This document shows, piece after piece, positions 7,274 through 60,851 of a stretch of 64,000 nt of DNA. Each line of letters opens with the position of its first letter. The stretch's first letter is position 1. Both the position numbers and the translations under genes were made by a program. This DNA comes from Candidatus Poribacteria bacterium (GTDB lineage: Bacteria; Poribacteria; WGA-4E; PCPOR2b): contig OZ242036.1 of NCBI GenBank assembly GCA_965205075.1, forward strand, positions 3,196,795 to 3,260,794. Reading direction: 5' to 3'. The notes under the pieces were generated by a model. It worked only from the letters and a program-made list of their open reading frames with translations, was not told where the DNA came from and ran no database searches.

Positions 7274-7606
7274 TCAATCGGCTTGCCAGTAAAAGACCTC
7301 AGGCAAACCTTCTGGATAAGCGTTAGCGGGATCATAGGTATCGCCGGTCGCGCTTTCCATAATCGGTGCCATGTATTCTTCCCAACGTACGGAGTCATCG
7401 CTTTCTGCTAAGATACGAGCTGCTTCCGCGTAATCCTCCATCTCCATATACAGAAAAAGTTGCAGACCGAACATAAAGATACTCATTTTGTGAACACCTG
7501 CCCGCTGTAAATCTGCTAGCACCTCTTGCCAGACCCGCTGGTGTCGTCGGATATATTCCTCTTGCTGCCCCTCCTTCACCCGCATAACAAAAGCGACACG
7601 CTGCAT
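7274..7606 (-). CDS. rhaM: L-rhamnose mutarotase family protein (RhaM/DUF718)
   Basis: MQRVAFVMRVKEGQQEEYIRRHQRVWQEVL matches the RhaM N-terminus. Start re-placed on the ATG preceded by RBS AAGGAGGGAGG. The longer ORF-track start at 7681 would overlap the upstream SDR gene. Confidence 0.65.
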   Translation of the reverse strand: MQRVAFVMRVKEGQQEEYIRRHQRVWQEVLADLQRAGVHKMSIFMFGLQLFLYMEMEDYAEAARILAESDDSVRWEEYMAPIMESATGDTYDPANAYPEGLPEVFYWQAD

Positions 7607-7628
7607 TGGCCTCCCTCCTTTGAAAGCA

Positions 7629-8441
7629 TTATTCTTTAGTGCCCGGTATCGGCATGGTACTGAGCAGCCCTCCATCAACATCTAGGGCAACACCTGTTAA
7701 AAACGATGATTCATCAGATAAAAAGAACAGAACTGCATTGACCACATCCGCTACAGTCGCATTGCGCTTGAGCGGAATACCTGCTGCAGTCTCCACGAGG
7801 ATTTCATCGGTTTCTTGACCTGTTGCGCCAATTTTCCAGTCGAGCACCGTTTGCCCCATCCCGGTTGTCGAAACCCCTACCGGACAGACACAGTTGACAG
7901 TTACTTGGTAAGGCGCCAACTCAGCAGCGAGTGCCTTAGTCAAGCCGACGACGCCGAACTTGGCTGCGCAGTATGACAGGATCATCGGACACCCAATTTT
8001 TGCAGCATCGGAACCGATGTTGACGATACGCCCACGCCGTCCACTTTCGCATAGCAATGGCGCAGCTGCTTGGCTGCACAAAAAGGGCCCTTTCAGATCG
8101 ACAGCCAGCACACGGTCCCAATCCGCCTCACTGATTTCTGCCAATGGTGCAAAGTGAATGACACCCGCTGAATTGATCAGTATATCCAATCCGCCGAAGG
8201 TTTCCTGACAAGCCATCACCCCCGCCTTGACCGAAACGGGCGAGGTCACATCAAGTTCCAAGGGCAGCACATCGTTGGCGTTACCCAAGTGTCGAGAGGC
8301 TTGCTCCAACCGCTCGGAATTAATGTCGCCAATTGCTACACGTGCTTGCTGACCAAGCAACGTTTCAGCGATGGCCAATCCGAAACCGCTAGCACCTCCG
8401 GTGATAAGTACGCGGCGCTGCGCCCCTCGCATGTTTGGCAT
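7629..8441 (-). CDS. SDR family oxidoreductase, possibly a sugar 1-dehydrogenase
   Basis: TGGASGFGLAIA Rossmann motif and a catalytic YxxxK region (YCAAK). Co-oriented immediately upstream of rhaM. Confidence 0.8.
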   Translation of the reverse strand: MPNMRGAQRRVLITGGASGFGLAIAETLLGQQARVAIGDINSERLEQASRHLGNANDVLPLELDVTSPVSVKAGVMACQETFGGLDILINSAGVIHFAPLAEISEADWDRVLAVDLKGPFLCSQAAAPLLCESGRRGRIVNIGSDAAKIGCPMILSYCAAKFGVVGLTKALAAELAPYQVTVNCVCPVGVSTTGMGQTVLDWKIGATGQETDEILVETAAGIPLKRNATVADVVNAVLFFLSDESSFLTGVALDVDGGLLSTMPIPGTKE

Positions 8442-8799
8442 TTCTCAATTCCTCACTATAGGCTGCCTCATAGCGTCACAAAGTCAGGTTATACCGTTTC
8501 TGAATAATTGTGTCGCATCATTCGGGAAAACTTACAAGAGGCTACAGTTGTTCATTAGTTCATTAATTACCCAATGAACTGATTTACGTTTCACATTTCA
8601 ACAATGCGTTATTCTTTTAGGAGTTACACACTTGAGTAAGGAACAACGATCGTTGTTCCCTACGAACTGTTGATGGCACCTCTATTGTAGTTGCCCGATT
8701 CATCGGGCGTTGTAAATTGTGTGCTGCGGCGATAAATCGCCGAACTACAGGACTTTGAACGTTCAACTGCGTAAGTCCTATTCTTTGTCAGAATTGGTA

Positions 8800-9660
8800 T
8801 TACTTCTGTCGGACAAACTTCTGCAAGCGATGATCCGCCTGCACTTCGCTGACATAGATATCGCCGTGCGAATCCAGCCAGATACCGTGTGGACAGGCGA
8901 AGAACTCGCCCGGAACAGTGCTGCCGCGTTCGCTACCCCATTGGGTGATAATCTCGCCATCAAGTGTCAAAATTGTGAGGCGCTGCTGTAACTCTGCAAT
9001 GTAAACAATGTCATCGTCATCAATAAAGATGGTATCTGGCTCCAAGAATCCGCCCCACTCCTCAATATATTCGCCATCAAGCGTGAAAAGCTGGATGCGG
9101 TTGTTGCTCCGGTCTGCGACCATTACACGGTTATGACGGTCTACCCGGACGCAATGCGGCAGATCGAACTCACCGGGACCCGTCCCCGGAGATCCCCAAG
9201 ACATAATGTACTCACCATCTGGGGAGTATTTGTGGATCCGTGCGTTGCCGTACCCATCGCTGATGAACATCTCTCCATCGGGACCGAGCGCAAGGTCTGT
9301 CGGCAAATTGAAAGGCTCACCTTCCGCACCGGGCTGATCGGGGGTCCCCAGTGTCATCAGGAGTTCCCCGTCAGCGGTGAATTTGCGCATGACATGCACC
9401 TCTCGCTCGACGCAATAGATGTGATCTTCGGCATCAATGAAAATACCGTGCGAGTCTTTGAGGATATCTTCGCCCCACGATGCGAGAAAGTTACCTTCGC
9501 GATCGAATACAACCATCGGGCGTTCGCTTCGACTGTAGACATAAATTCTATCCTGTGAATCAACCGCGACTGCGGGGATCCAACCAAATTTCCAACCTTC
9601 GGGGAGTTGTCCCCAACCTTCTTGCACCTCATAGGTATGGCTACCTGAACCATATATCAT
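8800..9660 (-). CDS. NHL-repeat beta-propeller protein
   Basis: Repeated D/N-x-x-N-x-R-I/V motifs (ADRSNNRIQLF, etc.). Start re-placed at ATG 9660 with RBS GGAGG 9 nt upstream. Confidence 0.65.
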   Translation of the reverse strand: MIYGSGSHTYEVQEGWGQLPEGWKFGWIPAVAVDSQDRIYVYSRSERPMVVFDREGNFLASWGEDILKDSHGIFIDAEDHIYCVEREVHVMRKFTADGELLMTLGTPDQPGAEGEPFNLPTDLALGPDGEMFISDGYGNARIHKYSPDGEYIMSWGSPGTGPGEFDLPHCVRVDRHNRVMVADRSNNRIQLFTLDGEYIEEWGGFLEPDTIFIDDDDIVYIAELQQRLTILTLDGEIITQWGSERGSTVPGEFFACPHGIWLDSHGDIYVSEVQADHRLQKFVRQK

Positions 9661-16671: not shown

Positions 16672-19038
16672 TTACCACGCCCGAATCTTTGAGAGTTCTG
16701 TCTGCTTTTCGCATAGGTTGGCATACGTTCCACCTTCGGCGATCAACTCTTCGTGTGTACCAATCTCATCAATTTGCCCTTCTTTGAGGACAACCAGACG
16801 ATTAGAATGTTTGAGTGTCGAAAGGCGGTGGGCGATTGCGAAGACTGTCCGCCCCTGAATCAGCCGTCCCAACGCCTCTTGGATTCTTGATTCGGTCTCC
16901 GTATCAACAGACGAAGTAGCTTCATCGAGGATGAGAATGCGCGGATTTTTGAGGATCGCGCGAGCGATGGAGATCCGTTGACGTTCTCCACCAGAGACGC
17001 GTGCCCCCCTTTCACCAACCGTCGTATCGTAACCATCAGGGAATTTAACGATAAAGTCGTGGGCGTTTGCGGCTTTTGCCGCAGCGATAATCTCTTGGCG
17101 AGTTGCATCCGGTTTGCCATAACCGATATTGTCAGCGACGGAGCCTTCAAACAGGAATGGTTCCTGCAGCACCACGCCAATCTGCCCTCGCAGAGACCTG
17201 AGTTCAATATCGCGGCTATCATGCCCGTCAATAAGAATTTCACCCTCGTTGGGATCATAGAATCGGGTCACTAAATTGATGAGGGTACTTTTGCCTGCGC
17301 CGCTATGTCCGACGAGCCCAATCATCTCTCCCGGCTGGGTGGTAAAACTGATGCCATTGATAGCGTTTTTCTCACCATCGTAAGAGAAGAAAACGTCACG
17401 AAATTCGACCTGCCCCCGCATATTCGGAAGGCGAACAGCGTCTTTACGACTCGCAACGCTAGGCGGTGTGTCAAGGACCTCAAAGACCCGCTCAGCAGAC
17501 GTCGCAGCTCTCAGGAATCGACGGTTCATCTGAGCGAGTGTTCGTACGGGTTGTAAAAACCGCGTCATATAAGTCATGAATAGCGTAATTTCACCGAGCG
17601 TTAAGTCTCCATTGAGGATCTGCCGCCCTCCAACCAACCAGATGAGTACAGTCCCCAAATAGGTCATAAAGGTCATGATTGGCTGATAAAGTGTCCACAG
17701 TTTGGCGGCATTCATTTCTCCTTCAAAAACCTGATGGGTCTGCTCTTGAAAGCGATCGACTTCGTATTTCTCACGGGTGAATGCCTTAACAACCCGTATC
17801 CCCGGAATTGTACTTGCCAAAATTGTGCTAATCCCAGCGTAGCGCCTCCACAAGACGTGGAAAACCTTGGACATTTTGTGTCCAAAATAGAATGAGAAAA
17901 GGATAATGAAGGGAATCGGAAGCAACACCCAGAGTGCCAGCTGCCAGTTCACGGTAAACATGATAATGCACATAAAAATCAGCGTCATTGAATCGCCGAT
18001 AATATCCTGCAGCCCTTCAGCGATGAAGTCACGCAGCCGTCCGACATCCTGAGTGATGCGTGACATAAGATTCCCCGTCTCCCGCTGTTGGTAGAAGTCG
18101 AGTGAAAGGATACTCATGTGCTGATAGGCATCATTCCGCAATGTCAAGGTGATACGCTGCCCGACCCACGCCATCATGTACCCCCGAACTGCTGAGAAAG
18201 CTGCCGTAAAAACGTGTAATCCAACCATCAGAAGCACAATCATTACCACTTGTCCAAACGCGCCCGGCTGGACCGGCTGTCCTCCCGTCATTGCCATTGT
18301 TGCGGGAACGAGGATGTCATCAATCAGTTGCTGAACCAGAATAGGAGGATAAACGTCAACAAACCGGATAACCAGCATAACTAGTAACGCTGGAACAGAA
18401 ACCTTCCAAAATGGGAGGGCGTACTTTAGCAAGCGGACGAGGAGTTTCCCTTTTTCAACGCAGTTCGGGCAAACATCAGACCACCGTGGGATCGGGCGCC
18501 CACAGGTTTCACATCGAATTTTCTTTTTTCCGGGATCGACATATTTCCGACGCCGCTTAGATTTGTCCGCTTCTTCCGGCTTAACCTTGTCAATTAAAGA
18601 TTCGATTTCTGGGGTCGCTTCGGCAAATTTGGGAACGAACCGCTTGGAGTAGCGAGCAATTTCAAATGCTCCCTCTGCGGTTCGCACTTTCATGAAATTA
18701 TTGCCGTATAACTCTCGTATTTCGATTCTGTCAATGGTTTCGAGCGCAATATTTTGGATTTCAGGTCCGGGCACACCGTTTTGGTTAAAAGCGAGTAGGC
18801 GTTTCTCCGTCGCTAACACCCAATCTTTCCCGTAAGTGCCATCAAACTGTAAATCTGTAGAAATAGCAATTTTAATCTCTTCTTCTCCATCTAGCAAATC
18901 TTCAAGCTGATCTTGGAGCTCTGCTGGCACTTCCTCTAAAATTGTCATCTCTACATCGGGCCGTCTAACGTTGTTCCTTCTACCGGAAGAACGAGCCATT
19001 CGATGCATGTCTCGTCTAGAAAATCCCCCGCTGTGCAT
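16672..19038 (-). CDS. ABC transporter ATP-binding/permease fusion (type I exporter) with an N-terminal PH-like cytoplasmic domain and a C4 zinc ribbon
   Basis: Walker A GHSGAGKST, signature VSGGERQRISIARA, Walker B ILILDEATSSVD, H-loop AIAHRLST. Six predicted TM helices. N-terminal domain of about 150 aa followed by CETCGRPIPRWSDVCPNC. Start placed at ATG 19038 after RBS GAGGAGG. Confidence 0.85.
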   Translation of the reverse strand: MHSGGFSRRDMHRMARSSGRRNNVRRPDVEMTILEEVPAELQDQLEDLLDGEEEIKIAISTDLQFDGTYGKDWVLATEKRLLAFNQNGVPGPEIQNIALETIDRIEIRELYGNNFMKVRTAEGAFEIARYSKRFVPKFAEATPEIESLIDKVKPEEADKSKRRRKYVDPGKKKIRCETCGRPIPRWSDVCPNCVEKGKLLVRLLKYALPFWKVSVPALLVMLVIRFVDVYPPILVQQLIDDILVPATMAMTGGQPVQPGAFGQVVMIVLLMVGLHVFTAAFSAVRGYMMAWVGQRITLTLRNDAYQHMSILSLDFYQQRETGNLMSRITQDVGRLRDFIAEGLQDIIGDSMTLIFMCIIMFTVNWQLALWVLLPIPFIILFSFYFGHKMSKVFHVLWRRYAGISTILASTIPGIRVVKAFTREKYEVDRFQEQTHQVFEGEMNAAKLWTLYQPIMTFMTYLGTVLIWLVGGRQILNGDLTLGEITLFMTYMTRFLQPVRTLAQMNRRFLRAATSAERVFEVLDTPPSVASRKDAVRLPNMRGQVEFRDVFFSYDGEKNAINGISFTTQPGEMIGLVGHSGAGKSTLINLVTRFYDPNEGEILIDGHDSRDIELRSLRGQIGVVLQEPFLFEGSVADNIGYGKPDATRQEIIAAAKAANAHDFIVKFPDGYDTTVGERGARVSGGERQRISIARAILKNPRILILDEATSSVDTETESRIQEALGRLIQGRTVFAIAHRLSTLKHSNRLVVLKEGQIDEIGTHEELIAEGGTYANLCEKQTELSKIRAW

Positions 19039-32807: not shown

Positions 32808-33528
32808 ACTTGTTAAAAGTTATACAAGACGTGGACCCATCGTTGTTAATCGAGTCAGCCTTGAAGTCGAGACAGGCGAAATTGTCGGTTTGCTGGGTCC
32901 GAACGGTGCGGGCAAGTCAACGACATTTTATATGGTTGTTGGACTGATCCGCCCCAACGCAGGACAAATCATCTATGATGATGAGGACATCACATTTCTG
33001 CCGATGTATAAACGCGCACGACGGGGCATCGGTTATCTCGCTCAGGAAACCTCTATCTTTCGGAAGCTGACGGTCAGACAGAACATCGAAGCCATCTTAG
33101 AGGTGCGCGATATTCCCAAAATGGAGCGTGGCGAACAAAGTGAACAACTGATGGACGAACTTGGCATTTCTGAGTTGGCAGATCGCAAGGCATACACCCT
33201 TTCGGGTGGCGAATGTCGTCGTGCTGAAATCGCAAGAGCTTTGGCAGCGTCTCCGTCTTTTATTTTATTGGATGAGCCATTTTCAGGGATAGATCCAATT
33301 GCAGTTCAAGATATTAAGCAGCTCATCTTACACTTACGCGATAGAAATCTTGGCATCCTAATCACAGACCACAATGCCTCGGAAATGTTAGGCATTGTTG
33401 ACCGTGCTTACTTAATTACTGACGGAAAAATCACGTTAAGCGGTACGCCTGAAACACTTGTTGAGAGTGAAATCGCTAGAGATCAGTACTTGGGGCATAA
33501 TTTTGAACTGCGCAGATCTCAGATATAA
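32785..33528 (+). CDS. lptB: LPS export ABC transporter ATP-binding protein
   Basis: GTG start. Walker A GPNGAGKSTTFYM, signature LSGGECRRAEIARAL, Walker B ILLDEPFSGIDP. Classic LptB N-terminus (ELVKSY). Confidence 0.85.
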   Translation: MAVLQTHELVKSYTRRGPIVVNRVSLEVETGEIVGLLGPNGAGKSTTFYMVVGLIRPNAGQIIYDDEDITFLPMYKRARRGIGYLAQETSIFRKLTVRQNIEAILEVRDIPKMERGEQSEQLMDELGISELADRKAYTLSGGECRRAEIARALAASPSFILLDEPFSGIDPIAVQDIKQLILHLRDRNLGILITDHNASEMLGIVDRAYLITDGKITLSGTPETLVESEIARDQYLGHNFELRRSQI

Positions 33529-41854: not shown

Positions 41855-42388
41855 ATGGCAAACGAATCAATTCAACTTTTTAATGGAACGGATCTCACCG
41901 GTTGGCGGATGCGGCATCCGGACCAAGAACACAAGTGGGTTGTTCACGACGGCATCCTCGACAACACCGGTAAAGGTGTAGATATCATGACGGAGCAAGA
42001 GTTCGGGGACTTTGAACTGCATATCGAGTATCTGGTGCCAGAGGATAGCAACAGTGGTATCTACTTCCGGGGTCGATATGAGATCCAGATTTTAGACAGT
42101 CTTGGGAAGACGTACTCATACCCAGCGGAGAACGGTGCCCTTTATAATCAGAAGCATGTAGATGTTGAGGCGAGTAAGCCAGCAGGAGAATGGCAAACAG
42201 TAGATGCAACACTCAAGGGTATGAGTCTGACAGTAGTCCTAAATGGGGTCAAGATTCACGACAATGTGACCATCGAGGGACCGACAGGTGGACAACTCGC
42301 CGATGATAATCCACCCAAGGGTCCTCTGATGTTGCAGGGGGACCATGGCCCCGTTCAATTTCGCAATATTCGGATTCGGGAATTGTGA
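41855..42388 (+). CDS. DUF1080 (3-keto-disaccharide hydrolase) family protein
   Basis: LFNGTDLTGW...NSGIYFRGRYEIQILDS...GPLMLQGDHGPVQFRNIRIREL family hallmarks. Start placed at ATG 41855 after AAGGAGA. Confidence 0.75.
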   Translation: MANESIQLFNGTDLTGWRMRHPDQEHKWVVHDGILDNTGKGVDIMTEQEFGDFELHIEYLVPEDSNSGIYFRGRYEIQILDSLGKTYSYPAENGALYNQKHVDVEASKPAGEWQTVDATLKGMSLTVVLNGVKIHDNVTIEGPTGGQLADDNPPKGPLMLQGDHGPVQFRNIRIREL

Positions 42389-52086: not shown

Positions 52087-52154
52087 TTATTTAAGTAGTG
52101 TTAAGTGATTAACCAGAATGTCATTGCGCAAAAATGGTATCGAATGGAGGTTCA

Positions 52155-53189
52155 ATGAAAAGATATTTTCTACGCGGCATTTTACCTTTAATGTGTCTAT
52201 TGTTAAGCAGTCCCGCTGTTCTGTGGGGAGATGCGGGTAAGATTAGCGGTTACTTTTTTGGCGATTATTACTATGTGCTGAAGTCTCACAACGCTGAACT
52301 TGAGAGCCGGAATGGATTTCAGTATCGACGCGTCTATTTCAATTACGACAAGGATCTGTCAGAAGCATTTTCGATGCGGTTTCGGTTCGAGATGAATGGC
52401 GCATCATTCCCCACAGATCGTCAGAAAATCGAACCGTATCTCAAAAATGGCTATCTGAGGTGGAAGAAACCCGAGTGGCGGACCAATCTTTATTTAGGGA
52501 TATCTAGCAACCCGACTTGGAAGAATGTTGAAAGGGTATGGGGCTATCGTTCTGTTGCAGAAACGGCGCTTCACATGCACAAAATGGGAAATGGCTCCGA
52601 CTTTGGTATAGCTCTACAAGGCGATGTCGATAAATCAAAAAAGGTTAGCTACCATTTGATGTTCGCAAATGGCACGAGCACAAGTGCAGAAATTGATGGC
52701 AATAAGAAGATCGCCTTTTCACTCGCAGCCAAGCCCGTTACAGGCTTTATCGTTGAAGGATATGCCGATTTGGAAAATGCAGTGGATCGGGGCAGATGGT
52801 ACACATTACAAGGTTTTCTAGGCTATCAACGGGAGCAGCTTCGGGTCGGTATTCAGCTTGCCAATCAGACGCGGGAACAGGAAGACAAGGACGACCTTAA
52901 CATTTTAGTGAGCTCGGTATTCGGTGCGGCGCAATTGCTCGAAAAGAAGGTATGGGCTTTTGCTCGGTTTGACAGGCTGTTCGATCCAAGTCCTGCTGCG
53001 AATAAAGGTTATATCCATTTTGATGGTACAGCAGCGCCAAATATGATTCTTGTCGGGTTGGATTGGAAACCCATTGAGGCGTTAAATATCATGCCCAATC
53101 TTGTCTTCGTCTTTTACGATGAACCGGATAATGGCCCCAAACCTGACGCGACGATTATGCCGCGTTTGACAGCATTCTTCAGGTTCTAG
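52155..53189 (+). CDS. Outer-membrane porin, probably phosphate-selective (OprO/OprP-like)
   Basis: Signal peptide. Beta-barrel pattern. C-terminal ...AFFRF. Pho-box promoter and Pho-cluster context. Confidence 0.55.
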   Translation: MKRYFLRGILPLMCLLLSSPAVLWGDAGKISGYFFGDYYYVLKSHNAELESRNGFQYRRVYFNYDKDLSEAFSMRFRFEMNGASFPTDRQKIEPYLKNGYLRWKKPEWRTNLYLGISSNPTWKNVERVWGYRSVAETALHMHKMGNGSDFGIALQGDVDKSKKVSYHLMFANGTSTSAEIDGNKKIAFSLAAKPVTGFIVEGYADLENAVDRGRWYTLQGFLGYQREQLRVGIQLANQTREQEDKDDLNILVSSVFGAAQLLEKKVWAFARFDRLFDPSPAANKGYIHFDGTAAPNMILVGLDWKPIEALNIMPNLVFVFYDEPDNGPKPDATIMPRLTAFFRF

Positions 53190-53223
53190 CAATGGAGGCG
53201 TGGAACCTGATGTGGGACAGTCA

Positions 53224-53258
53224 GAAAACGGGACCGCTCTGCTCCCGTTTTCTCCTCT
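53224..53258 (+). terminator. Rho-independent terminator after the porin gene
   Basis: GAAAACGGGA-ccgctctgc-TCCCGTTTTC followed by TCCTCT. Confidence 0.65.
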
Positions 53259-53304
53259 AATATCTTCTCACGTTTCACGTTTCATTCGTTGGAGGGGACA
53301 CGCT

Positions 53305-54435
53305 ATGCAATCTAACTTAGAAGAAAACATGCAGCAGGACATCGATCTGATCCGCAGCAATGTAATTGAGATGGGTAAATTAGTTGAGCAAGCGTTAGAA
53401 ACCTGTCTGAATGCGATTCAGCATAATGATCGACAATCGGCTTATGTTGTGATCTTAAGAGACCGGCATATCGATGAGTTAGAGGAGACTCTAGAATCAC
53501 TTTGCCAGAGGTTCCTGATTAAGCACCTACCCGTTGCGAGTCAAATGCGCTTTGTTTATTCGGTTATCAAAATCAACACCGAATTAGAGCGTGTTGGCGA
53601 TTATGCGAAAGCGATGGCTCGGCGATTTTTGACTGTCAGTGACTTGGGCGCGCAAGCCTCCCATCCCAAGCTCATCGACATTGCCAACCTTGCAATTCCG
53701 TTCCTCCGTAACGCCTTGCAAGCCTTCGCTGAAGGTGACGCTGAATTGGCAAAAGCAACGAGGGAAAAGGAAAAAGAACGGGCGATAGATAATTTACGCT
53801 ACGAAATTCACAGTGATTTAATCCAATTACACATCAAGGACGAATTGCCATCAGAGGCACTAGTTCCGCTGGTGACGATTGTCAGTTGCTTGGAGCGTGT
53901 AGCAAATCAGGCGAGCAATATTTCCGAGGAAATCTTGTATATGTGTACCGGCGAAGATTTAAGACACGACTACCAACAGGTGTTGCGTGTACTTTTCGTC
54001 GCCGAGCACGATGCGTGCCGAGGACAGATGGCAGCCGGTATCGGCAGTTCCCTCGAATCGCATAGGATACTGTTTAGTAGTGCCGGCGTGGCGTCCCAAC
54101 CACTGGATCCGAAAACCGTGCAATTCATGGAGGAAAAAGGCATTGATATTTCTGGTCAAAGGTCCAAATATTTAAGCCAAATCTTAGATCTCAAAGATTA
54201 CGCAATCATTGTATCGCTCAGTGAGGAAGCAGACAAAGCTCTCCCGTCGTTGCCATCGCGACCAGTGCGTATCAATTGGGAAGTGCCGGATCCGTCAAAG
54301 CTTGAAGGAACCGAAGAGGAAGTTCAAGCTGCATACCAAACAACATTTCAATTTTTAGAAACACACATCCGAGAATTGGTTCAAGCAATTCTCGGTGATA
54401 ATATTGAGAAGGAGAAGGAAACTGATGTTCAATAA
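53305..54435 (+). CDS. phoU: PhoU-domain protein fused to a C-terminal LMW-phosphatase/ArsC-like domain that lacks the catalytic cysteines
   Basis: N-terminal tandem PhoU repeats (IDELEETLESLCQRF..., ELERVGDYAKAMARRF). C-terminal VLFVAEHDACRGQMAAG aligns to the LMW-PTP/ArsC P-loop V-x-F-x-C-x-G-N-x-C-R-S with the nucleophile Cys replaced by Ala. DPKTVQFMEEKGIDISGQRSK matches ArsC, and the downstream Cys pair is replaced (SLSEEADKA). Confidence 0.7.
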   Translation: MQSNLEENMQQDIDLIRSNVIEMGKLVEQALETCLNAIQHNDRQSAYVVILRDRHIDELEETLESLCQRFLIKHLPVASQMRFVYSVIKINTELERVGDYAKAMARRFLTVSDLGAQASHPKLIDIANLAIPFLRNALQAFAEGDAELAKATREKEKERAIDNLRYEIHSDLIQLHIKDELPSEALVPLVTIVSCLERVANQASNISEEILYMCTGEDLRHDYQQVLRVLFVAEHDACRGQMAAGIGSSLESHRILFSSAGVASQPLDPKTVQFMEEKGIDISGQRSKYLSQILDLKDYAIIVSLSEEADKALPSLPSRPVRINWEVPDPSKLEGTEEEVQAAYQTTFQFLETHIRELVQAILGDNIEKEKETDVQ

Positions 54436-55309
54436 AGTGTTGTGCGCTATCGTTGCGGTAGCGTTCTGTCTGTTTTCAAACGGCTGCACAAAGAAAGATG
54501 AGGCCAGTGAAAAGGTCGTGATTCAGAACGCGGGTTCTGATACGATGGTCAATCTCGCACAGGCATGGGCAGAGGCGTATGCTACCGTCGAGCCCAATGT
54601 GTCCCTTGAAGTTTCCGGTGGTGGTTCGGGAACCGGCATCGCTGCGCTGACCAGCGGCACGGTAGACATCGCGAATTGTAGCCGTCAAATGACGCTGGCA
54701 GAAAACGAACGGGTGAAACAGAACACAGGCGAAGCACCGAAAGAATTCATCGTTGGATACGATGCACTCGCTGTTTACGTCCACAAAGATAATCCGTTGG
54801 CTGAAATCTCCATAGATCAACTTGCTGCTATCTACGGAGAAGGCGGAGACATAACTGAATGGTCTCAACTCGGCATTGATAATAGCGAGTGTGCTAATGA
54901 CGAGATTATTCGGGTGAGTAGACAATCGAATTCCGGGACATTCGTCTATTTCCGCTCGGCAGTTCTCGGCAAGAAGCGCGACTATAAGCTCGGCTCAAGA
55001 GATCTACACGGTTCCAAGGATGTCGTCGAACTCGTCGCACATACACCGTGTGCAATTGGCTATAGCGGCATGGGGTACGCCACAGAAGAGGTGAAGATGC
55101 TCAAAATTGCTAAGAATGCAGGTGATACCGCCTATGGGCCCACCGCCCAAGGTGTGCTTGACGGTACGTATCCAATCGCAAGACCCCTGTATATGTATTC
55201 GCTCGGAACGCCAGAACCGCAGGAACAGACTTACCTAGATTGGATCTTTTCGCCAACGGGACAGGGGATTGTTGAGAAAACAGGTTACGTGCCCGTCGGA
55301 CAGAAATGA
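54425..55309 (+). CDS. pstS: Phosphate ABC transporter substrate-binding protein
   Basis: Lipobox FSNGC. PstS-family motifs (SGGGSGTG, TVDIANCSR). Confidence 0.8.
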   Translation: MFNKVLCAIVAVAFCLFSNGCTKKDEASEKVVIQNAGSDTMVNLAQAWAEAYATVEPNVSLEVSGGGSGTGIAALTSGTVDIANCSRQMTLAENERVKQNTGEAPKEFIVGYDALAVYVHKDNPLAEISIDQLAAIYGEGGDITEWSQLGIDNSECANDEIIRVSRQSNSGTFVYFRSAVLGKKRDYKLGSRDLHGSKDVVELVAHTPCAIGYSGMGYATEEVKMLKIAKNAGDTAYGPTAQGVLDGTYPIARPLYMYSLGTPEPQEQTYLDWIFSPTGQGIVEKTGYVPVGQK

Positions 55310-55367: not shown

Positions 55368-56276
55368 ATGCGAACAATCGTGAACATTTTTCACCAACTC
55401 GAACGTTGGTGCGAGCCAGTTATCGAAGCAATTATTCGCCTATGCGGTATCAGCGCAATTATCTTCGTCTTCGGCATATTCTTCTTCGTCTTCCGCGAAG
55501 GGATGGGCTTTTTCTTCGGCGGATTGGACATCGTTGAGTTTCTCACAAGCCCCGAATGGTATCCTACTTCTCTTAGCAACAAACGTTACGGCGTATTGGC
55601 ATTAATCGCAGGTACGTTTAGCGTGACAGCCTTGGCGATGGTTATTGCTGTGCCGTTTGGGCTTGGAGCAGCTATCTTCGTGTCTGAATTTTGCGGACCG
55701 AAATTGAAGGAAACCCTCAAAATCGTCATTGAGTTGCTCGCGGCGATTCCATCCGTTGTGTGGGGTTTCATCGGCTTAACGGTGATGAACGCGCTGATTA
55801 TCAAGATATTCAACGTCCCAATCGGTTTGACGATGCTAAACGGCGGTATTATTCTAGCACTGATGAGCGTCCCTATCATTGTCTCCATAGGTGAGGACGC
55901 ACTCAAAGCAGTTCCGGATTCGTATCGAGAAGCGGCTGAAGCACTCGGTGCAACGCGATGGCAGGTGATTTATCGTGTGTTGTTGCCTACAGCAAAGAAT
56001 GGATTGCTTGCAGCGGTACTGTTGGGCGTTGGTCGTGCAGTGGGTGAAACCATGGCGGTGTTGATGACAACGGGCCATGCGGTAAACATGCCAAATAGCC
56101 CTTTCGATTCTGTCCGTACGCTGACCGCCACGATCGCAGCCGAATTGGGTGAGGCAGCGGTGGGCAGTGATCATTATCGTGTGTTGTTTATTATCGGCGT
56201 TTTGTTATTTACAATTACATTTATCGTAAACTTTGTTACCGACCTTGTGATTAAAGGCATCCGCGAAAAGGCGTAG
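55368..56276 (+). CDS. pstC: Phosphate ABC transporter permease PstC
   Basis: Six-TM permease with the EAA-like loop (EAAEALGATRWQ). Confidence 0.85.
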   Translation: MRTIVNIFHQLERWCEPVIEAIIRLCGISAIIFVFGIFFFVFREGMGFFFGGLDIVEFLTSPEWYPTSLSNKRYGVLALIAGTFSVTALAMVIAVPFGLGAAIFVSEFCGPKLKETLKIVIELLAAIPSVVWGFIGLTVMNALIIKIFNVPIGLTMLNGGIILALMSVPIIVSIGEDALKAVPDSYREAAEALGATRWQVIYRVLLPTAKNGLLAAVLLGVGRAVGETMAVLMTTGHAVNMPNSPFDSVRTLTATIAAELGEAAVGSDHYRVLFIIGVLLFTITFIVNFVTDLVIKGIREKA

Positions 56277-56295: not shown

Positions 56296-57237
56296 ATGGC
56301 AACAGATATAAATTCCTCCCCCACCTCTCCAGAAGTCGTCGCTCCTCACTTGATGTTCACCGCCACCGCACAGAGCCGTAAAAAACAGCTGATGGAGAAT
56401 ATTGCACGGGGCGTCTTTTTCGTAATGACGCTGTTAATGATCCTGCCGCTTATCCTCATCGTTGTATATCTCTTTGTCAAGGCAGCACCGGTCCTGTCTC
56501 CAGAGTTCTTTTTCACGAATCCTGCAAAGGGGATGAGAGCTGGCGGTATATGGGCACCGCTGCTTGGAACGATTTATATTGTGATAATTTCGCTGCTTGT
56601 TTCCGCGCCAATCGGTGTTTTAGCTGCGGTCTATCTAAACGAGTACGCCCGTGAAAGCTGGTTTACCCGAATCATCAACCTTGCAGTCGTCAATCTCGCC
56701 GGTGTGCCGAGCATCGTTCACGCCCTTTTTGGGGTGGGTGCCTTTGTGTACTTTGCAAAAATGGGACGCTCAGTTTTAGCCGCTTCCCTCACATTGGCGA
56801 TTATGACGCTGCCGGTTATCATTGCAAGCACGAAGGAAGCACTCGGCGCTGTTCCGATGGCGTTCCGGGAAGCGTGTTGGAATACCGGCGCGACACGGTG
56901 GCAGACAATTCGTGGCATTGTTTTGCCAAATTCAATTAGTGGTATACTGACCGGGGTAATTTTACAGGTGTCACGAGCGGCGGGTGAGACTGCGCCAATT
57001 ATGTTTACCGGGGCAGTATTTTTTAAGGCTATCTCTGAAGGGGATGTTCTCGCCTACGGTCTACTCGATCGGTTTATGGCGCTCTCAATGCACCTGTACC
57101 AACTTTCGACGCAAGTACCGGGTGTTCCCGAAGCCTTAGAGTACGGTACAGCCGTTGTGCTATTGGGTGCTGTGCTGATGGTGAACGCGGTGGCGATTGT
57201 GCTGCGTGTGTACCTGCGATCTCGCAAGCGGTGGTAG
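56296..57237 (+). CDS. pstA: Phosphate ABC transporter permease PstA
   Basis: Permease with EAA motif (REACWNTGATRWQ). Confidence 0.85.
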   Translation: MATDINSSPTSPEVVAPHLMFTATAQSRKKQLMENIARGVFFVMTLLMILPLILIVVYLFVKAAPVLSPEFFFTNPAKGMRAGGIWAPLLGTIYIVIISLLVSAPIGVLAAVYLNEYARESWFTRIINLAVVNLAGVPSIVHALFGVGAFVYFAKMGRSVLAASLTLAIMTLPVIIASTKEALGAVPMAFREACWNTGATRWQTIRGIVLPNSISGILTGVILQVSRAAGETAPIMFTGAVFFKAISEGDVLAYGLLDRFMALSMHLYQLSTQVPGVPEALEYGTAVVLLGAVLMVNAVAIVLRVYLRSRKRW

Positions 57238-57334: not shown

Positions 57335-58108
57335 TTGGCACAGATAGCTAACTTTACAAAGAAAATTGAAATCGCCGACCTTACAGTCCGATACGGAGAG
57401 ATGGAAGCCCTTAAAGGGATTTCCTTCGATGTATATGAGAATGAAATACTTGGCGTTATCGGTCCGGCACAATCCGGCAAAACAACACTGTTGAAAACTA
57501 TCAATCGTACGATTGAATTGGAGCCAAGTGCACAGGTCAGCGGTTTGGTAAAAATTGACGGCACAGATGTACAAAGTATCAAAAATGTCAACCAACTGCG
57601 TAGACGAATTGGGATGGTATTTCCGCTGCCTGTCGGTTTACCCTTGTCCATCTACGATAACGTTGCGTTCGCGCCTCGTACTGCGGGGATCCGCAAACGG
57701 AGCGAGTTAGACGAACTTGTTGAGCGTTGTCTAAAACAGGCGGCACTTTGGGATGAGGTTAAAGATCGCCTCAATAGTCTCGGTACAAAGTTGTCGGGAG
57801 GACAGCAGCAGCGTTTGACTATTGCCCGTGCACTCTCACACCAACCCGAAATTCTCTGTCTCGACGAATTTTCGATTGCTGTGGATCCGGTGACAACCAT
57901 GCGCATTGAGGATATCCTCAAAGAATTGCGATCCCAAGTCACGATCATCCTCGTTACCAATTTGGTTCAACAGGCACGTCGTTTGGCAGACCGCACCGCG
58001 TTTATATTTGAAAGCGAGCTAATCGAAATCGACGACAACGATGTTATTTTCTCCGATTCACCGGCGAATAGACTAACCTATGACTATGTGAATGGAACCT
58101 TCGGATGA
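57335..58108 (+). CDS. pstB: Phosphate ABC transporter ATP-binding protein PstB1 (degenerate Q-loop and H-loop, intact LSGGQ)
   Basis: Walker A GPAQSGKTT. Q-loop MVFPLP (Q to P). Signature LSGGQQQRL. Walker B ILCLDEF. H-loop VTNLVQQA (H to N). Confidence 0.85.
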   Translation: MAQIANFTKKIEIADLTVRYGEMEALKGISFDVYENEILGVIGPAQSGKTTLLKTINRTIELEPSAQVSGLVKIDGTDVQSIKNVNQLRRRIGMVFPLPVGLPLSIYDNVAFAPRTAGIRKRSELDELVERCLKQAALWDEVKDRLNSLGTKLSGGQQQRLTIARALSHQPEILCLDEFSIAVDPVTTMRIEDILKELRSQVTIILVTNLVQQARRLADRTAFIFESELIEIDDNDVIFSDSPANRLTYDYVNGTFG

Positions 58109-58881
58109 GCGCAGACAAAAGACACAGCATCGAAACCCGTCAACTTAACCTATGGTACGGCGACTTTCAGGCACTTATCAATGTGAGCATGAAGATTGTT
58201 GACGGTTTGATAACCGGGCTCATTGGTCCCTCCGGCTGTGGCAAAACCACGTTGCTGCGCTGTTTCAACCGCGTGAACGAACGCTACGGCAATGTCACGA
58301 CGACCGGCGAGGTTGAAATCCTCGGTAAAAATATTTACGATGCGGACGTCTCACTGCCGGAACTACGCAAAAACGTCGGTATGGTATTTCAGCGTCCGAA
58401 TCCCCTACCAATCTCCGTTTACGAAAATATTATTTTTGGTTTGCGGATCCACTCCGAACAGCGTATGCGGAAGAAGTCAGCAACTGACGATATCGTTGAA
58501 GCAGCGTTAAGGGAGGTCTTCCTGTGGGATGATCTGAAGGATCAACTAAAGGTGAAGGCAACCACCCTGCAGCTCGAACAGCAGCAAAAGTTGTGCATAG
58601 CCCGACTGCTGCCGTTGAAACCACGGGTGATTTTGATGGACGAACCGTGTTCTGCCCTTGACGCCAAAGGCACGCGGACCGTCGAAGAATTAATGTTGGA
58701 ACTCGCAGGGCAGTACACCATTCTGATTGTCACGCACAATATGGCGCAGGCGCGCCGTGTGAGCGATGAATGTATCTTCATGCTGCTCGGTGAGATTGTT
58801 GAGCACAGCCGCACTGAAGATCTATTCCTGACGCCCCAGAACGAAAAAACGGCGGATTATATCGAAGGTCGATACGGATAA
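58105..58881 (+). CDS. pstB: Phosphate ABC transporter ATP-binding protein PstB2 (canonical NBD motifs but degenerate signature LQLEQ)
   Basis: Walker A GPSGCGKTT. Q-loop MVFQRP. Signature LQLEQQQKL instead of LSGGQ. Walker B ILMDEP. H-loop VTHNM. Confidence 0.85.
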   Translation: MSADKRHSIETRQLNLWYGDFQALINVSMKIVDGLITGLIGPSGCGKTTLLRCFNRVNERYGNVTTTGEVEILGKNIYDADVSLPELRKNVGMVFQRPNPLPISVYENIIFGLRIHSEQRMRKKSATDDIVEAALREVFLWDDLKDQLKVKATTLQLEQQQKLCIARLLPLKPRVILMDEPCSALDAKGTRTVEELMLELAGQYTILIVTHNMAQARRVSDECIFMLLGEIVEHSRTEDLFLTPQNEKTADYIEGRYG

Positions 58882-58887: not shown

Positions 58888-59512
58888 TAGTATACGTCGG
58901 AACCCTTTAGCGGAAGTGCCACAACCCAGATATTACGATACTTCACCGGGTTACCGTGGTTTGCAGGCGTAAGGGTCCCGGTGCTGCGGCTTCGTCGTCC
59001 GTCGCCCCACCTGTAGCCCCCTCTATTTGGACGTTATTCTGTATCACAATCCCATTCTGCAGCACGGTCACACGTGCGTTCTCTTCAATCTCTCCCGACT
59101 CACTGATGCGAGCAGCGCGGAATATCGCATCGTATGTTTGCCATTCAAGCGGTGGCTTGCAAGCGTTTACCAACGATGCAAATTGATTGTAAATTGCGCC
59201 ACAGTCTCCCATGCCCGGCACATCAATCCCGTAGGAATCCAAGACTTGGATTTCATACCGTCCCTGAAGGAATACCCCACTATTTCCTTTTGCTTGACCC
59301 GTTGCGTCTGGCATGTCGGGTGTCATGAACTCTAAATGAAGTAGAAAATCGGTAAACTTCTCCCGACTCACGATGTCCCCTCCGCCGGCGGTCACGGTCA
59401 TCGCGCCGTCAGCGACCTCCCACGCCGGTGATCCGCCATCAAGTGTCGTCCAGTTGCTGAGATCTGTCCCATCAAAAAGAATAACTGCCGCCTCCGGTGG
59501 TGTCTGCATCAT
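58888..59512 (-). pseudogene. DUF1080 (3-keto-disaccharide hydrolase) family gene with an apparent 1-nt frameshift near the C-terminus (or a sequencing error)
   Basis: ORF 58943-59515 ends ...GPLRLQTTVTR*. Shifting one base after LQ (around 58958-58964) restores the conserved family C-terminus HGNPVKYRNIWVVALPLKGSDVY-stop at 58888. Confidence 0.45.
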
Positions 59513-59530
59513 CAATTGCCCTCTCTTTTG

Positions 59531-59710: not shown

Positions 59711-60002
59711 AAAGGATACGAATAGCATAGCACACCTAGAAAACTTTGTCAACAGTAAAGTCTGTTCATTTTTCTCAATAGTTAAAAAAATCTGAGTTAG
59801 TGGTGAAAATATCAAAAAGAGAATATAACACCTGAATTGAAAACTGGAGGCAAATCAGAATGATTTTTTGTTGACTTTTTCCTACAAAGGTGTTAGGTTG
59901 ATTTGCACGACAGGTGTTCACCATCTGATCTATTACACCCCAAAAATATGTGCGAATTTTGGTTCAAGTACACAACAGCCAGCAAACCAGCAGGAGGATA
60001 TC

Positions 60003-60851
60003 ATGCCTTACAAACTTAGACCAGACAAGATGTATATGATGCCAACACACTTTGGTCCCGGCATGGGACCGAGGCAGGGACCGTGTGGACGCAAATTCGA
60101 GTGTAAGGACAGTCCGAAGTCAACGTCCGTATCAGTCAGCTTTTTGACGAACCGTGAACAACTTCAGGAATTTTTGCCTGAACGCTTCGAGGTTGGCGCA
60201 GAGCCGGTCGTCAGCGTTTCTGCATCCTATATGACGGAGATCGAGTGGTTGGCGGGTCGTGGATACAATGTCCTCGGCGTCAGCTTTCCCGCCATCTTCA
60301 ACGGGGAACGAGATCGCGCTGAAGGCGGGCTGCTGACGGTGCTTTGGGAAAACCTGTGCGATCCGATCCTTACGGGTCGTGAGCAGTTGGGCTTCTCCAA
60401 AATCTACTGTGAGCTTCCGGAGCCGGTCGTGCTTCGCGGAGACACACACTGCATTGCCAGTTGGCTCGGCTTCAAGTTCTTGGATATGGAACTGACGAAC
60501 ATGGAGCAGGTGGCACTGGATCCAAACCCTGCGCCGGCAGCTCCACCTCCGGATGATGGTGTGCTGCGGGGGACCTTGCACTACAAATATATGCCCCGAA
60601 CCGGGGAATGGGGCCAAGGCGATGTCGGGTATGCCGTACTCACGCCGGCAGAAGGAAGCAACAGCATTACTAAAGAACTGTGGCGCGGTGAGGGAACAGT
60701 GGAGTTTCACAAAGCGAGGTGGGAAGACCTACCAACACAGTATCACATAGTCAACGCCTTCCATGAGTTGGAAATTAAAGAATACCGCGGTGCAACCATC
60801 TCTAAAAGCGTTGGCGGCAAAGATCTCAGCGATCAACGAATTCTTCAGTAG
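60003..60851 (+). CDS. Hypothetical protein, possibly acetoacetate-decarboxylase-like fold
   Basis: 282 aa. RBS AGGAGGA 6 nt upstream of the ATG. Weak resemblance only. No firm motif. Confidence 0.4.
   Translation: MPYKLRPDKMYMMPTHFGPGMGPRQGPCGRKFECKDSPKSTSVSVSFLTNREQLQEFLPERFEVGAEPVVSVSASYMTEIEWLAGRGYNVLGVSFPAIFNGERDRAEGGLLTVLWENLCDPILTGREQLGFSKIYCELPEPVVLRGDTHCIASWLGFKFLDMELTNMEQVALDPNPAPAAPPPDDGVLRGTLHYKYMPRTGEWGQGDVGYAVLTPAEGSNSITKELWRGEGTVEFHKARWEDLPTQYHIVNAFHELEIKEYRGATISKSVGGKDLSDQRILQ

What the first reader, a model, noticed from the sequence alone, without database searches (positions are those of the whole stretch)
57335..58881. Tandem PstB1/PstB2 with complementary motif degeneracy predicts an asymmetric heterodimeric ATPase with one dead ATP site in a phosphate importer
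PstB1 keeps a canonical signature LSGGQ but has Q-loop Gln to Pro (MVFPLP), H-loop His to Asn (VTNLVQQA) and an atypical Walker A (GPAQSGKTT). PstB2 has canonical Walker A/B, Q-loop and H-loop, but its signature is LQLEQ instead of LSGGQ. In a head-to-tail NBD dimer this gives one consensus site (PstB2 Walker motifs plus PstB1 signature) and one degenerate site (PstB1 Walker motifs plus PstB2 signature). That asymmetry is well known in ABC exporters such as CFTR and TM287/288, but unusual for a Pst importer, which normally uses a PstB homodimer.
Basis: partly seen in the sequence, partly recalled or inferred. Interest (0 to 1): 0.65.

Follow-up and report, generated by a model that had tools for sequence, protein, structure and literature searches.

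The report
Asymmetric two-subunit ATPase of phosphate importer
This phosphate-uptake operon encodes two different ATPase subunits whose conserved substitutions fit together, so the pair should have one normal and one crippled ATP site; this design is well known in ABC exporters, I found no description of it for phosphate importers, and it recurs in hundreds of bacterial species.

Summary
PstB1 (57335-58108) and PstB2 (58105-58881) end a pstS-pstC-pstA operon and overlap by ATGA. Aligned to E. coli PstB, PstB1 has Q-loop Gln->Pro, H-loop His->Asn and Walker A GPAQSGKTT, but keeps LSGGQ, the Walker A Lys and the Walker B Asp-Glu. PstB2 is canonical except for its signature, LQLEQ. These are not sequencing errors. 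The genome scan found at least 569 loci encoding PstB1 relatives; the 80 best were examined, and the same residues are essentially invariant in 80 PstB1 and 78 PstB2 orthologues from them (Poribacteria, Verrucomicrobiota, Acidobacteriota, Myxococcota, Fibrobacterota, KSB1). PstB1 is as conserved as PstB2 and the permeases. A second, older type (Planctomycetota, Verrucomicrobiota) shows the same logic, which gives the core: the PstB1-like subunit loses the Q-loop Gln and has His->Asn, and the PstB2-like subunit has the second Gly of LSGGQ replaced by Glu or Asp (as little as LSGEQ). That is the CFTR G551D/E position. Only the heterodimer gives one complete ATP site. I found no prior description. 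Verdict: a new variant of a known kind, of moderate to high interest.

The parts
57335..58108 (+). pstB1: PstB-like nucleotide-binding subunit with intact LSGGQ and intact nucleotide-binding residues (A-loop Tyr20, Walker A Lys49, Walker B Asp177-Glu178). It lacks the Q-loop Gln (Pro97) and the H-loop His (Asn209).
   Evidence: ORF. Best NCBIfam hit is PstB at 279 bits, below the 343 cut-off. Motifs by alignment to E. coli PstB. AlphaFold model pLDDT 92.7, TM 0.91/0.95 and rmsd 1.4 A to E. coli PstB 9k3x_C.
58105..58881 (+). pstB2: PstB-like subunit with canonical Walker A, Q-loop, Walker B, D-loop and H-loop, but signature LQLEQQQK in place of LSGGQQQR.
   Evidence: ORF. PstB at 325 bits, below the cut-off. 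Residue-by-residue alignment to 9k3x_C. Motifs.
58105..58108 (+). ATGA overlap of the pstB1 stop and the pstB2 start. This suggests translational coupling and so equal amounts of the two subunits.
   Evidence: Sequence. The same -4 spacing occurs in 19 related loci, and the spacing is within about 30 nt in most of the others.
57461..57487 (+). PstB1 Walker A, GPAQSGKTT. Lys and Thr are kept. S45A, C47S and S50T (E. coli numbering) are shared by both PstB1-like types; G46Q occurs in type 1 only.
57614..57631 (+). PstB1 Q-loop, MVFPLP. Gln->Pro in 81/81 type-1 sequences; type 2 has Ala or Ser here.
57791..57814 (+). PstB1 canonical signature LSGGQQQR, which would complete the consensus ATP site built on the PstB2 Walker motifs.
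57851..57886 (+). PstB1 Walker B and D-loop, ILCLDEFSIAVD. Asp-Glu are kept. Type-1-specific changes are L176C, P180F, S182I (E. coli numbering).
57950..57967 (+). PstB1 H-loop, LVTNLV. His->Asn in 81/81 type-1 and 120/120 type-2 sequences.
58567..58590 (+). PstB2 degenerate signature, LQLEQQQK. The Glu at the position of the second Gly is the universal feature: 78 Glu and 1 Asp among 79 type-1 sequences (the window's own PstB2 plus 78 orthologues).
56296..57237 (+). pstA, permease subunit.
   Evidence: TIGR00974 at 257 bits, above the cut-off. Conserved upstream of pstB1 in related loci.
55368..56276 (+). pstC, permease subunit.
   Evidence: TIGR02138 at 287 bits, above the cut-off.
54395..55309 (+). 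pstS, phosphate-binding protein. The true start is probably a few codons downstream of the listed GTG.
   Evidence: TIGR02136 at 234 bits, above the cut-off.
53200..54435 (+). phoU fused to an LMW-PTP/ArsC-like domain; first gene of the conserved cluster.
   Evidence: TIGR02135 plus arsC/LMWPc hits. The fusion is present in 37 of 66 related loci.

Best explanation
PstB1 and PstB2 are the two different nucleotide-binding subunits of one PstSCA-B1B2 phosphate importer, and they work as an obligate head-to-tail heterodimer. Site I is a normal ATP-hydrolysing site. It is built from the PstB2 Walker A, Walker B, Q-loop and H-loop plus the PstB1 LSGGQ. Site II is built from the PstB1 Walker A and Walker B, with no Q-loop Gln and Asn in place of the H-loop His, plus the PstB2 LxxEQ signature. 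Site II probably still binds nucleotide, because the A-loop Tyr, Walker A Lys/Thr and Walker B Asp/Glu are invariant. It probably cannot form the normal closed ATP sandwich or hydrolyse at a useful rate. It lacks two catalytic residues, and a carboxylate sits where the signature backbone should contact the gamma-phosphate. Transport would then be driven by one ATP hydrolysis per cycle at site I, and site II would act as a structural or allosteric nucleotide site. What is shown: gene arrangement, motif content, conservation, distribution, and the fold of PstB1. What is inferred: heterodimer formation, nucleotide binding at site II, loss of hydrolysis at site II, and the ATP stoichiometry.
For: The operon is phoU-pstS-pstC-pstA-pstB1-pstB2 with an ATGA overlap. 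Of the 80 species-level loci examined, 78 have pstB2 immediately after pstB1, and the rest show no B2, consistent with truncated contigs. The variant motifs are invariant. In PstB1, Q98P is 81/81, H210N 81/81, LSGGQ 81/81, K49, D178 and E179 81/81, and Y20 81/81. In PstB2, G157E/D is 79/79, with Q98, H210, K49, D178 and E179 kept. PstB1 is not decaying: median identity to the window is 73% for B1, 76% for B2, 78% for PstC and 72% for PstA. The PstB1 model is confident (pLDDT 92.7) and superposes on E. coli PstB at 1.4 A. A second, deeper type repeats the logic. In 120 B1-like proteins H->N is 120/120 and Q->A/S/D is 120/120, with LSGGQ, K, D and E all 120/120. Its partners read LSAEQ, LPLDQ, LSPEQ, LPLEQ and LSGEQ. 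The unbiased column screen finds only complementary ATP-site positions, plus A137 in the B2-like proteins. Published mutagenesis supports the functional reading. CFTR G551D/E, at the same signature position, blocks ATP-driven NBD dimerisation by repelling the gamma-phosphate, whereas G551S/K do not (PMC4178940). One active site is enough for the histidine importer (Nikaido and Ames 1999, as cited in PMC3971661). The importance of the H-loop His and Q-loop Gln for ABC catalysis is established knowledge (HlyB H662, MalK, HisP; recalled, not tested here).
Against: There is no physical evidence that B1 and B2 bind each other or PstCA. No heterodimer model could be built with the tools offered. PstB1 keeps the Walker B catalytic Glu, whose loss is described as the hallmark of degenerate sites in exporters (PMC7544095 abstract), so residual or alternative catalysis at site II is not excluded. 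The Asn and the Glu/Asp are invariant rather than variable, which suggests a positive function for site II and not just loss. The 1 ATP per cycle stoichiometry is pure inference.
Confidence: 0.75

Rival explanations
1. Site II is not a dead site but a re-engineered one. The invariant Asn (PstB1 H-loop) and the invariant Glu/Asp (PstB2 signature) form a new contact. The carboxylate might occupy the gamma-phosphate position over bound ADP, or it might sense the ATP/ADP ratio or phosphate. Site II would then be a built-in latch or a metabolic or Pho-signalling sensor, not merely an inert remnant.
For: Both replacement residues are fixed, not just 'anything but His/Gly': N in 201/201 and E/D in all 87 B2-like proteins seen. 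All nucleotide-binding residues of PstB1 are invariant. PstB1 is as constrained as PstB2. In E. coli the conformation of PstB is read by PhoU/PhoR (PMC5775613), and phoU is in these operons.
Against: There is no structural model of the pair and no direct evidence for a ligand. In CFTR a carboxylate at this position simply prevents closure. Strong conservation is also expected for a purely structural ATP-binding site, as in TM287/288-type exporters.
Confidence: 0.2
2. PstB1 and PstB2 do not pair. One of them, as a homodimer, powers transport, and the other has an accessory or regulatory role, as proposed for the tandem PstB1/PstB2 of Enterococcus faecalis.
For: In E. faecalis PstB2 is required, and PstB1 is accessory and can be replaced by excess PstB2 (PMC12096839). 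Some genomes also carry a separate canonical pst operon (L084, L061).
Against: In E. faecalis both proteins have canonical motifs. Here a B2 homodimer would have two sites with a G551E-like signature, and a B1 homodimer two sites without Gln and His. The substitutions fall on opposite halves of the same composite site in every pair, which only makes sense for a heterodimer. The ATGA overlap also argues for pairing.
Confidence: 0.04
3. The substitutions are sequencing or assembly errors, or pstB1 is a decaying duplicate or pseudogene.
For: None beyond the unusual motifs. Both proteins score below the curated PstB cut-off.
Against: The same residues occur in hundreds of independent assemblies. 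The ORFs are intact. PstB1 is conserved at 66-94% identity across phyla, like the permeases. The fold model is confident.
Confidence: 0.01

Closest known systems
E. coli PstSCAB (PstB homodimer; PDB 9k3x/9k3y/9k3s; PMC12976172)
   Same: Same operon components (PstS, PstC, PstA, PstB-type NBD, PhoU). PstB is the best family hit for both proteins. The PstB1 model superposes on 9k3x_C at TM 0.91/0.95 and 1.4 A. Identity to E. coli PstB is 43% for B1 and 48% for B2.
   Different: E. coli uses two identical PstB subunits with two canonical sites. Here there are two subunits only 37% identical to each other, each carrying half of a degenerate site. Both score below the curated PstB equivalog cut-off.
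Heterodimeric ABC exporters with one degenerate site (TM287/288, BmrCD, TmrAB, LmrCD, TAP1/2, CFTR, MsRv1273c/72c)
   Same: Walker-side changes on one NBD and signature changes on the other converge on a single composite site, leaving one consensus site (reviews PMC7756269 and PMC3971661).
   Different: Those are exporters with a type IV fold and NBDs fused to their TMDs. Their hallmark is loss of the Walker B catalytic Glu (PMC7544095), which is retained here. The Q-loop Gln is usually kept in those proteins and is lost here (recalled, not tested). His->Asn and Gly->Glu are different replacements. This system is a type I binding-protein-dependent importer with free NBD subunits.
Tandem PstB1/PstB2 (PstBA/PstBB) of Firmicutes (E. 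faecalis, B. subtilis)
   Same: Two adjacent pstB genes at the end of a pst operon. In B. subtilis they are modelled as a PstBA-PstBB heterodimer (PMC11466899).
   Different: [quoted passage not shown] There is no complementary degeneracy.
Importers with fused NBDs and one degenerate site (RbsA, NupO; CUT2-type)
   Same: ABC importers in which one of the two ATP sites is degenerate (PMC11466899).
   Different: There the NBDs are fused in one polypeptide, and the degenerate site lacks the Walker A Lys (and Walker B Asp/Glu in NupO), so nucleotide binding itself is lost. Here the subunits are separate and all nucleotide-binding residues are kept.
CFTR G551D/G551E disease and engineered mutants
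   Same: An acidic residue at the second Gly of LSGGQ, exactly the universal substitution in PstB2-like proteins. It blocks ATP-dependent closure of that site by charge repulsion (PMC4178940).
   Different: In CFTR it is a pathogenic change in the consensus site. Here it is a fixed, selected feature of the already non-catalytic site.

Membership tests
PstB, phosphate ABC transporter ATP-binding protein (NCBIfam TIGR00972 equivalog) | Whole-protein HMM score at or above the curated cut-off (343.2 bits) | tested here: not met
   PstB1 scores 279.4 bits and PstB2 325.1 bits. TIGR00972 is still the best hit for both.
PstB, phosphate ABC transporter ATP-binding protein (NCBIfam TIGR00972 equivalog) | PstB-type NBD fold without a C-terminal regulatory domain | tested here: met
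   PstB1 model has pLDDT 92.7. The best PDB matches are E. coli PstB 9k3x_C and 9k3s_C, at TM 0.91/0.95 and rmsd 1.4 A. The PstB2 model was of low confidence because the alignment was shallow, but PstB2 aligns end to end with 9k3x_C at E = 1.5e-72.
PstB, phosphate ABC transporter ATP-binding protein (NCBIfam TIGR00972 equivalog) | Encoded with pstS, pstC and pstA (and phoU) | tested here: met
   The same architecture occurs in related loci.
PstB, phosphate ABC transporter ATP-binding protein (NCBIfam TIGR00972 equivalog) | Complete set of catalytic motifs in each subunit (Walker A, Q-loop Gln, LSGGQ, Walker B DE, H-loop His) | tested here: not met
   PstB1 lacks the Gln and the His. PstB2 lacks S, G and G of the signature.
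ABC transporters with one consensus and one degenerate nucleotide-binding site | Two non-identical NBDs | tested here: met
   PstB1 and PstB2 are 36.6% identical.
ABC transporters with one consensus and one degenerate nucleotide-binding site | Deviations on the Walker side of one NBD and in the signature of the other, converging on the same composite site | tested here: met
   This holds for all 86 pairs examined, and the column screen returns no signature changes in B1 and no Walker/Q-loop/H-loop changes in B2. The head-to-tail geometry is assumed from solved ABC dimers, not modelled here.
ABC transporters with one consensus and one degenerate nucleotide-binding site | Loss of the Walker B catalytic glutamate in the degenerate site (described as the hallmark in exporters, PMC7544095) | tested here: not met
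   Glu is kept in 81/81 type-1 and 120/120 type-2 PstB1-like proteins.
ABC transporters with one consensus and one degenerate nucleotide-binding site | The degenerate site binds ATP but hydrolyses it poorly or not at all | not testable with these tools
   Needs ATPase and nucleotide-trapping assays on the purified complex and on site-specific mutants.
Firmicute-type tandem PstB1/PstB2 (PstBA/PstBB) | Two adjacent pstB genes in the pst operon | tested here: met
Firmicute-type tandem PstB1/PstB2 (PstBA/PstBB) | [quoted passage not shown] | tested here: not met
   The E. faecalis motifs are identical to those of E. coli (PMC12096839). Here they differ. No firmicute sequences were placed in the tree, so orthology was not tested directly.

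The most novel reading that the evidence does not exclude
The second ATP site of this Pst variant has been rebuilt rather than lost. An invariant carboxylate from PstB2 and an invariant Asn from PstB1 replace the gamma-phosphate contacts. The site would then stay occupied (for example by ADP or ATP) and act as a permanent hinge or as a sensor of cellular energy or phosphate state. The pump would run on one ATP per phosphate, and Pho signalling through PhoU would be tied to nucleotide status. This would be the first defined class of binding-protein-dependent type I importers with an obligate heterodimeric, functionally asymmetric motor, and it is widespread in oligotroph-rich phyla.
Probability: 0.25. 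Interest if true: 0.8.

Novelty: new variant of a known kind. Interest (0 to 1): 0.62.

Why it matters
Degenerate ATP sites have been studied almost entirely in exporters. How many ATP molecules a binding-protein-dependent importer needs per cycle, and what a non-catalytic site contributes, are still open questions. This family is a natural, strongly conserved type I importer in which evolution has fixed a single catalytic site. It has a solved close relative (E. coli PstSCAB) as a template, and at least one cultured host (Limisphaera sp., L065). The substitutions are few and well defined: Gln->Pro/Ala, His->Asn and Gly->Glu. They can be transplanted into E. coli PstB or reverted in the native proteins. 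The finding also matters for annotation. Both subunits fall below the curated PstB threshold, and they are named simply 'phosphate ABC transporter ATP-binding protein' in the database records that carry a name. For ecology, a 1-ATP phosphate pump in sponge symbionts, Verrucomicrobiota, Acidobacteriota and Planctomycetota would change estimates of the cost of phosphate scavenging.

Tried and rejected
(1) Sequencing error or pseudogene: rejected, because the same residues occur in hundreds of assemblies and PstB1 is as conserved as the permeases.

(2) Homodimers: rejected on motif logic.

(3) Heterodimer modelling: not possible. Structure prediction takes one chain from the window, the two genes are in different frames, and no full-length natural B1-B2 fusion was seen (P0187 and P0244 look like partial fusions or fragments).

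(4) The PstB2 monomer model came out at pLDDT 47, because my alignment had only 28 sequences of at least 79% identity. It is uninformative and I discarded it.

(5) The look-up of the 100%-identical PstB2 (P0121) to name the source genome found no record. Assignment to Poribacteria rests on L001 (94% identity) and neighbouring hits.

(6) I compared the PstA coupling-helix (EAA) region with E. coli to guess which permease docks PstB1. It differs, but the difference cannot be interpreted without a complex model. No EAA string was found in E. coli PstC by my simple pattern.

(7) I tested whether B1-like and B2-like proteins are sister paralogues. They are not recovered as sisters (0/200 bootstraps). 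A single origin for all B1-like proteins has 142/200 support and for all B2-like proteins 109/200, which is only moderate. The tree is NJ, and the motif columns themselves contribute to it.

(8) Nine full-text literature searches found no description of a degenerate PstB pair. Subscription-only papers are not covered.
Full report
**Observation**

pstB1 runs 57335-58108 (TTG start, 257 aa) and pstB2 runs 58105-58881 (258 aa). The pstB1 stop overlaps the pstB2 start in the sequence ATGA.

They close a cluster on the + strand:
- a porin-like ORF (52134-53189, no family hit)
- phoU fused to an LMW-PTP/ArsC-like domain (53200-54435)
- pstS (54395-55309)
- pstC (55368-56276)
- pstA (56296-57237)

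PstS, PstC, PstA and PhoU pass their curated NCBIfam cut-offs. Both PstB proteins have TIGR00972 (PstB) as their best hit but fall below its cut-off of 343.2 bits, at 279.4 and 325.1.

The HMMER alignment of PstB2 to the solved E. coli PstB (9k3x_C) puts LQLEQQQK opposite LSGGQQQR.

| Motif | PstB1 | PstB2 |
|---|---|---|
| Walker A | GPAQSGKTT | GPSGCGKTT |
| Q-loop | MVFPLP | MVFQRP |
| Signature | LSGGQQQR | LQLEQQQK |
| Walker B / D-loop | LCLDEFSIAVD | ILMDEPCSALD |
| H-loop | LVTNLV | IVTHNM |

The two proteins are 36.6% identical to each other. PstB1 is 43% and PstB2 48% identical to E. coli PstB.

**Not an error and not decay**

The 120 best database homologues of each protein (78-100% identical) carry the same variant motifs almost without exception.

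The window most resembles Candidatus Poribacteria (L001, 94% identity). The best 80 loci come from:
- Poribacteria
- Verrucomicrobiota, including a cultured Limisphaera sp.
- Acidobacteriota
- Myxococcota
- Fibrobacterota
- KSB1
- Planctomycetia

In 78 of the 80 loci a PstB2 orthologue follows directly. The remaining loci show no B2, consistent with truncated contigs. The usual architecture is phoU(-PTP)-pstS-pstC-pstA-pstB1-pstB2.

The counts, in E. coli numbering, are as follows. The totals of 81 and 79 include the window's own proteins.

| Protein | Changed | Kept |
|---|---|---|
| PstB1 (n = 81) | Q98P 81/81; H210N 81/81 | LSGGQ, K49, D178, E179 and A-loop Y20, all 81/81 |
| PstB2 (n = 79) | G156L 79/79; G157E 78 + D 1; S155Q 76/79 | Walker A, Q98, D178, E179 and H210 (H210 78/79, the exception an unread X) |

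Median identity to the window's proteins is 73% for PstB1, 76% for PstB2, 78% for PstC, 72% for PstA and 60% for PstS. The 'degenerate' subunit is therefore under the same constraint as the rest of the pump.

An AlphaFold model of PstB1 is confident (pLDDT 92.7). Its best solved match is E. coli PstB in PstSCAB, at TM 0.91/0.95 and rmsd 1.4 A.

**A wider and older class**

An exhaustive search of 50%-identity cluster representatives showed the PstB1 family extending down to about 56% identity, with variants such as GPANSGKTT, MVSPLP and LMLDEFSIAVD. It also revealed a second PstB1-like type with GPAGSGKT[ST], MVFA[TV]P, LSGGQ, LLDEPCSGLD and LVTNN.

A profile search for this second type returned 120 proteins. 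All have His->Asn. None keeps the Q-loop Gln (106 Ala, 13 Ser, 1 Asp). All retain Lys, Asp-Glu and LSGGQ.

Contigs carrying type-2 genes come from Planctomycetes and Verrucomicrobiae MAGs and from metagenomes. Where enough flanking sequence is present they show pstS-pstC-pstA-B1'-B2', usually followed by phoU. B2' is canonical except for a signature of LSAEQ, LPLDQ, LSPEQ, LPLEQ or LSGEQ. Two divergent type-1 pairs read LQLEM and LSLEE.

The common denominator of all 86 pairs is therefore small:
- the PstB1-like subunit has no Q-loop Gln and has His->Asn
- the PstB2-like subunit has the second Gly of LSGGQ replaced by Glu or Asp

I also screened for columns that are at least 85% conserved in 80 canonical PstB representatives but consistently different in these families (76 of 248 columns are that conserved in canonical PstB). 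The result is as follows:
- PstB1-like, both types: S45A, C47S, S50T, Q98, F103L, H210
- PstB2-like, both types: A137, G156, G157

PstB1 never changes its signature, and PstB2 never changes its Walker, Q-loop or H-loop residues.

Neighbour-joining bootstraps give the following support:

| Grouping | Bootstrap support |
|---|---|
| Extended type-1 PstB1 clade | 199/200 |
| Type-1 PstB2 clade | 200/200 |
| All PstB1-like together | 142/200 |
| All PstB2-like together | 109/200 |
| B1-like sister to B2-like | 0/200 |

This is compatible with one old origin of the pair, but it does not prove it.

**How it most likely works**

In all solved ABC dimers, ATP is sandwiched between the Walker A/B, Q-loop and H-loop of one NBD and the signature of the other. 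This is established knowledge, and the E. coli PstB dimer is described in the same way in PMC12976172. Applied here, the two sites are:
- Site I: PstB2 Walker-side motifs plus PstB1 LSGGQ. It is fully canonical.
- Site II: PstB1 Walker-side motifs plus PstB2 LxxEQ. It lacks the Q-loop Gln, the H-loop His and the signature Gly contacts.

A PstB2 homodimer would have two altered-signature sites. A PstB1 homodimer would have two sites lacking Gln and His. Only the heterodimer has a complete site. Together with strict co-occurrence and the ATGA overlap, this argues for an obligate heterodimer.

PstB1 keeps every residue needed to bind Mg-nucleotide: the A-loop Tyr, Walker A Lys/Thr and Walker B Asp, and also the catalytic Glu. 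I therefore expect site II to bind nucleotide.

The acidic residue in PstB2 sits at the position of CFTR G551. There, Asp or Glu, but not Ser or Lys, abolishes ATP-driven NBD closure by repelling the gamma-phosphate (PMC4178940). I therefore expect site II not to close on ATP in the canonical way and not to hydrolyse it at a useful rate.

One functional site is known to suffice in the histidine importer (cited in PMC3971661). The likely outcome is a pump that runs on one ATP per cycle at site I, with site II serving a structural or allosteric role. All functional steps in this section are inferred. None is shown.

**Rivals**

- **Rebuilt site.** The invariance of the Asn and of the Glu/Asp, rather than mere loss of His and Gly, leaves room for a stronger reading. 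Site II could be a hinge stabilised by the carboxylate, or a sensor linked to PhoU/PhoR signalling. In E. coli, PstB conformation is what is signalled (PMC5775613). I give this about 0.2-0.25.
- **Independent roles.** The idea that the two proteins act independently, as proposed for E. faecalis PstB1/PstB2 (PMC12096839), is unlikely. Those paralogues are both canonical, and here neither homodimer would have a complete site.
- **Sequencing error or pseudogenisation.** This is excluded.

**Comparison with known systems**

Functionally this resembles heterodimeric ABC exporters with one consensus and one degenerate site (TM287/288, BmrCD, TmrAB, CFTR and others; PMC7756269, PMC3971661). It differs from them in four ways:
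- it is a type I binding-protein-dependent importer with free NBD subunits
- the Walker B Glu is retained, whereas its loss is described as the hallmark in exporters (PMC7544095)
- the Q-loop Gln is lost
- the replacements (Asn, Glu) are different

It also differs from importers with fused NBDs (RbsA, NupO), whose degenerate site has lost the Walker A Lys (PMC11466899). It differs from firmicute tandem PstBs, which are canonical.

By family it is a divergent PstB pair. It meets the fold and context criteria for PstB but fails the curated score threshold and the full-motif criterion.

**Novelty**

Nine full-text searches found no description of a PstB pair with complementary degeneracy. A 2025 paper states that no study of tandem pstB paralogues had been published before it. 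The library does not cover most subscription journals, so earlier mention cannot be excluded.

I rate this a new variant of a known kind. The principle (an asymmetric NBD dimer) is well known. Its fixed, widespread occurrence in the phosphate importer, and the particular residue solution, appear to be undescribed.

**Verdict**

- Interest is 0.62.

Noticed in passing
window 53200-54435 (+): PhoU is fused to a C-terminal LMW-PTP/ArsC-like domain (PF01895 + PF01451), and the fusion recurs in 37 of 66 related loci. In the phosphatase P-loop the usual nucleophilic Cys of CX5R is replaced (LFV[A/D/G]xxxxCR[GS]Q). The domain is therefore probably a non-catalytic phosphate/arsenate-binding module attached to the Pho regulator.
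   Followed up: partly
window 52134-53189 (+): A 351-aa ORF lies directly upstream of the pst cluster. It has a signal-peptide-like N-terminus and a C-terminal ...FFRF, and it has no Pfam or NCBIfam hit. It may be an unclassified outer-membrane (phosphate?) porin. A homologue sits upstream of pst in only 2 of the 80 related loci.
   Followed up: partly
L011 7647-9974 (and 26 other Poribacteria loci); absent from the window: Downstream of pstB2 many Poribacteria carry an extra PstA-like permease, a third PstB paralogue and phoU. The third paralogue has its own degenerate motifs: Walker A GPxN[CS]GKST, a variable Q-loop, signature LS[ITN]GQQQ[LR] and H-loop FxTNKRRQA. It forms a separate clade (200/200 bootstraps) and is closer to E. 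coli PstB (about 45%) than to B1 or B2.
   Followed up: partly
L084 9911-13426 (-) versus 4462-9208 (+); L061 587-1408: A Verrucomicrobiae MAG has a canonical pstC-pstA-pstB-phoU operon back to back with the asymmetric pstS..B1'-B2'-phoU operon. Another Verrucomicrobia locus has a canonical PstB 5 kb upstream. Some genomes therefore keep both kinds of pump.
   Followed up: partly
window 58943-59515 (-) and 41867-42274: There are two paralogous 3-keto-disaccharide hydrolase (DUF1080, PF06439) genes, one of them immediately downstream of pstB2 on the opposite strand. An acetoacetate-decarboxylase-family gene lies at 59868-60851. They are unrelated to the finding.
   Followed up: no
window 16696-17433 (-) and 32845-33465 (+): Two further ABC ATPase genes occur in the window, 25-29% identical to PstB. 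They are not PstB-like, and no canonical pstB is present in these 64 kb.
   Followed up: no
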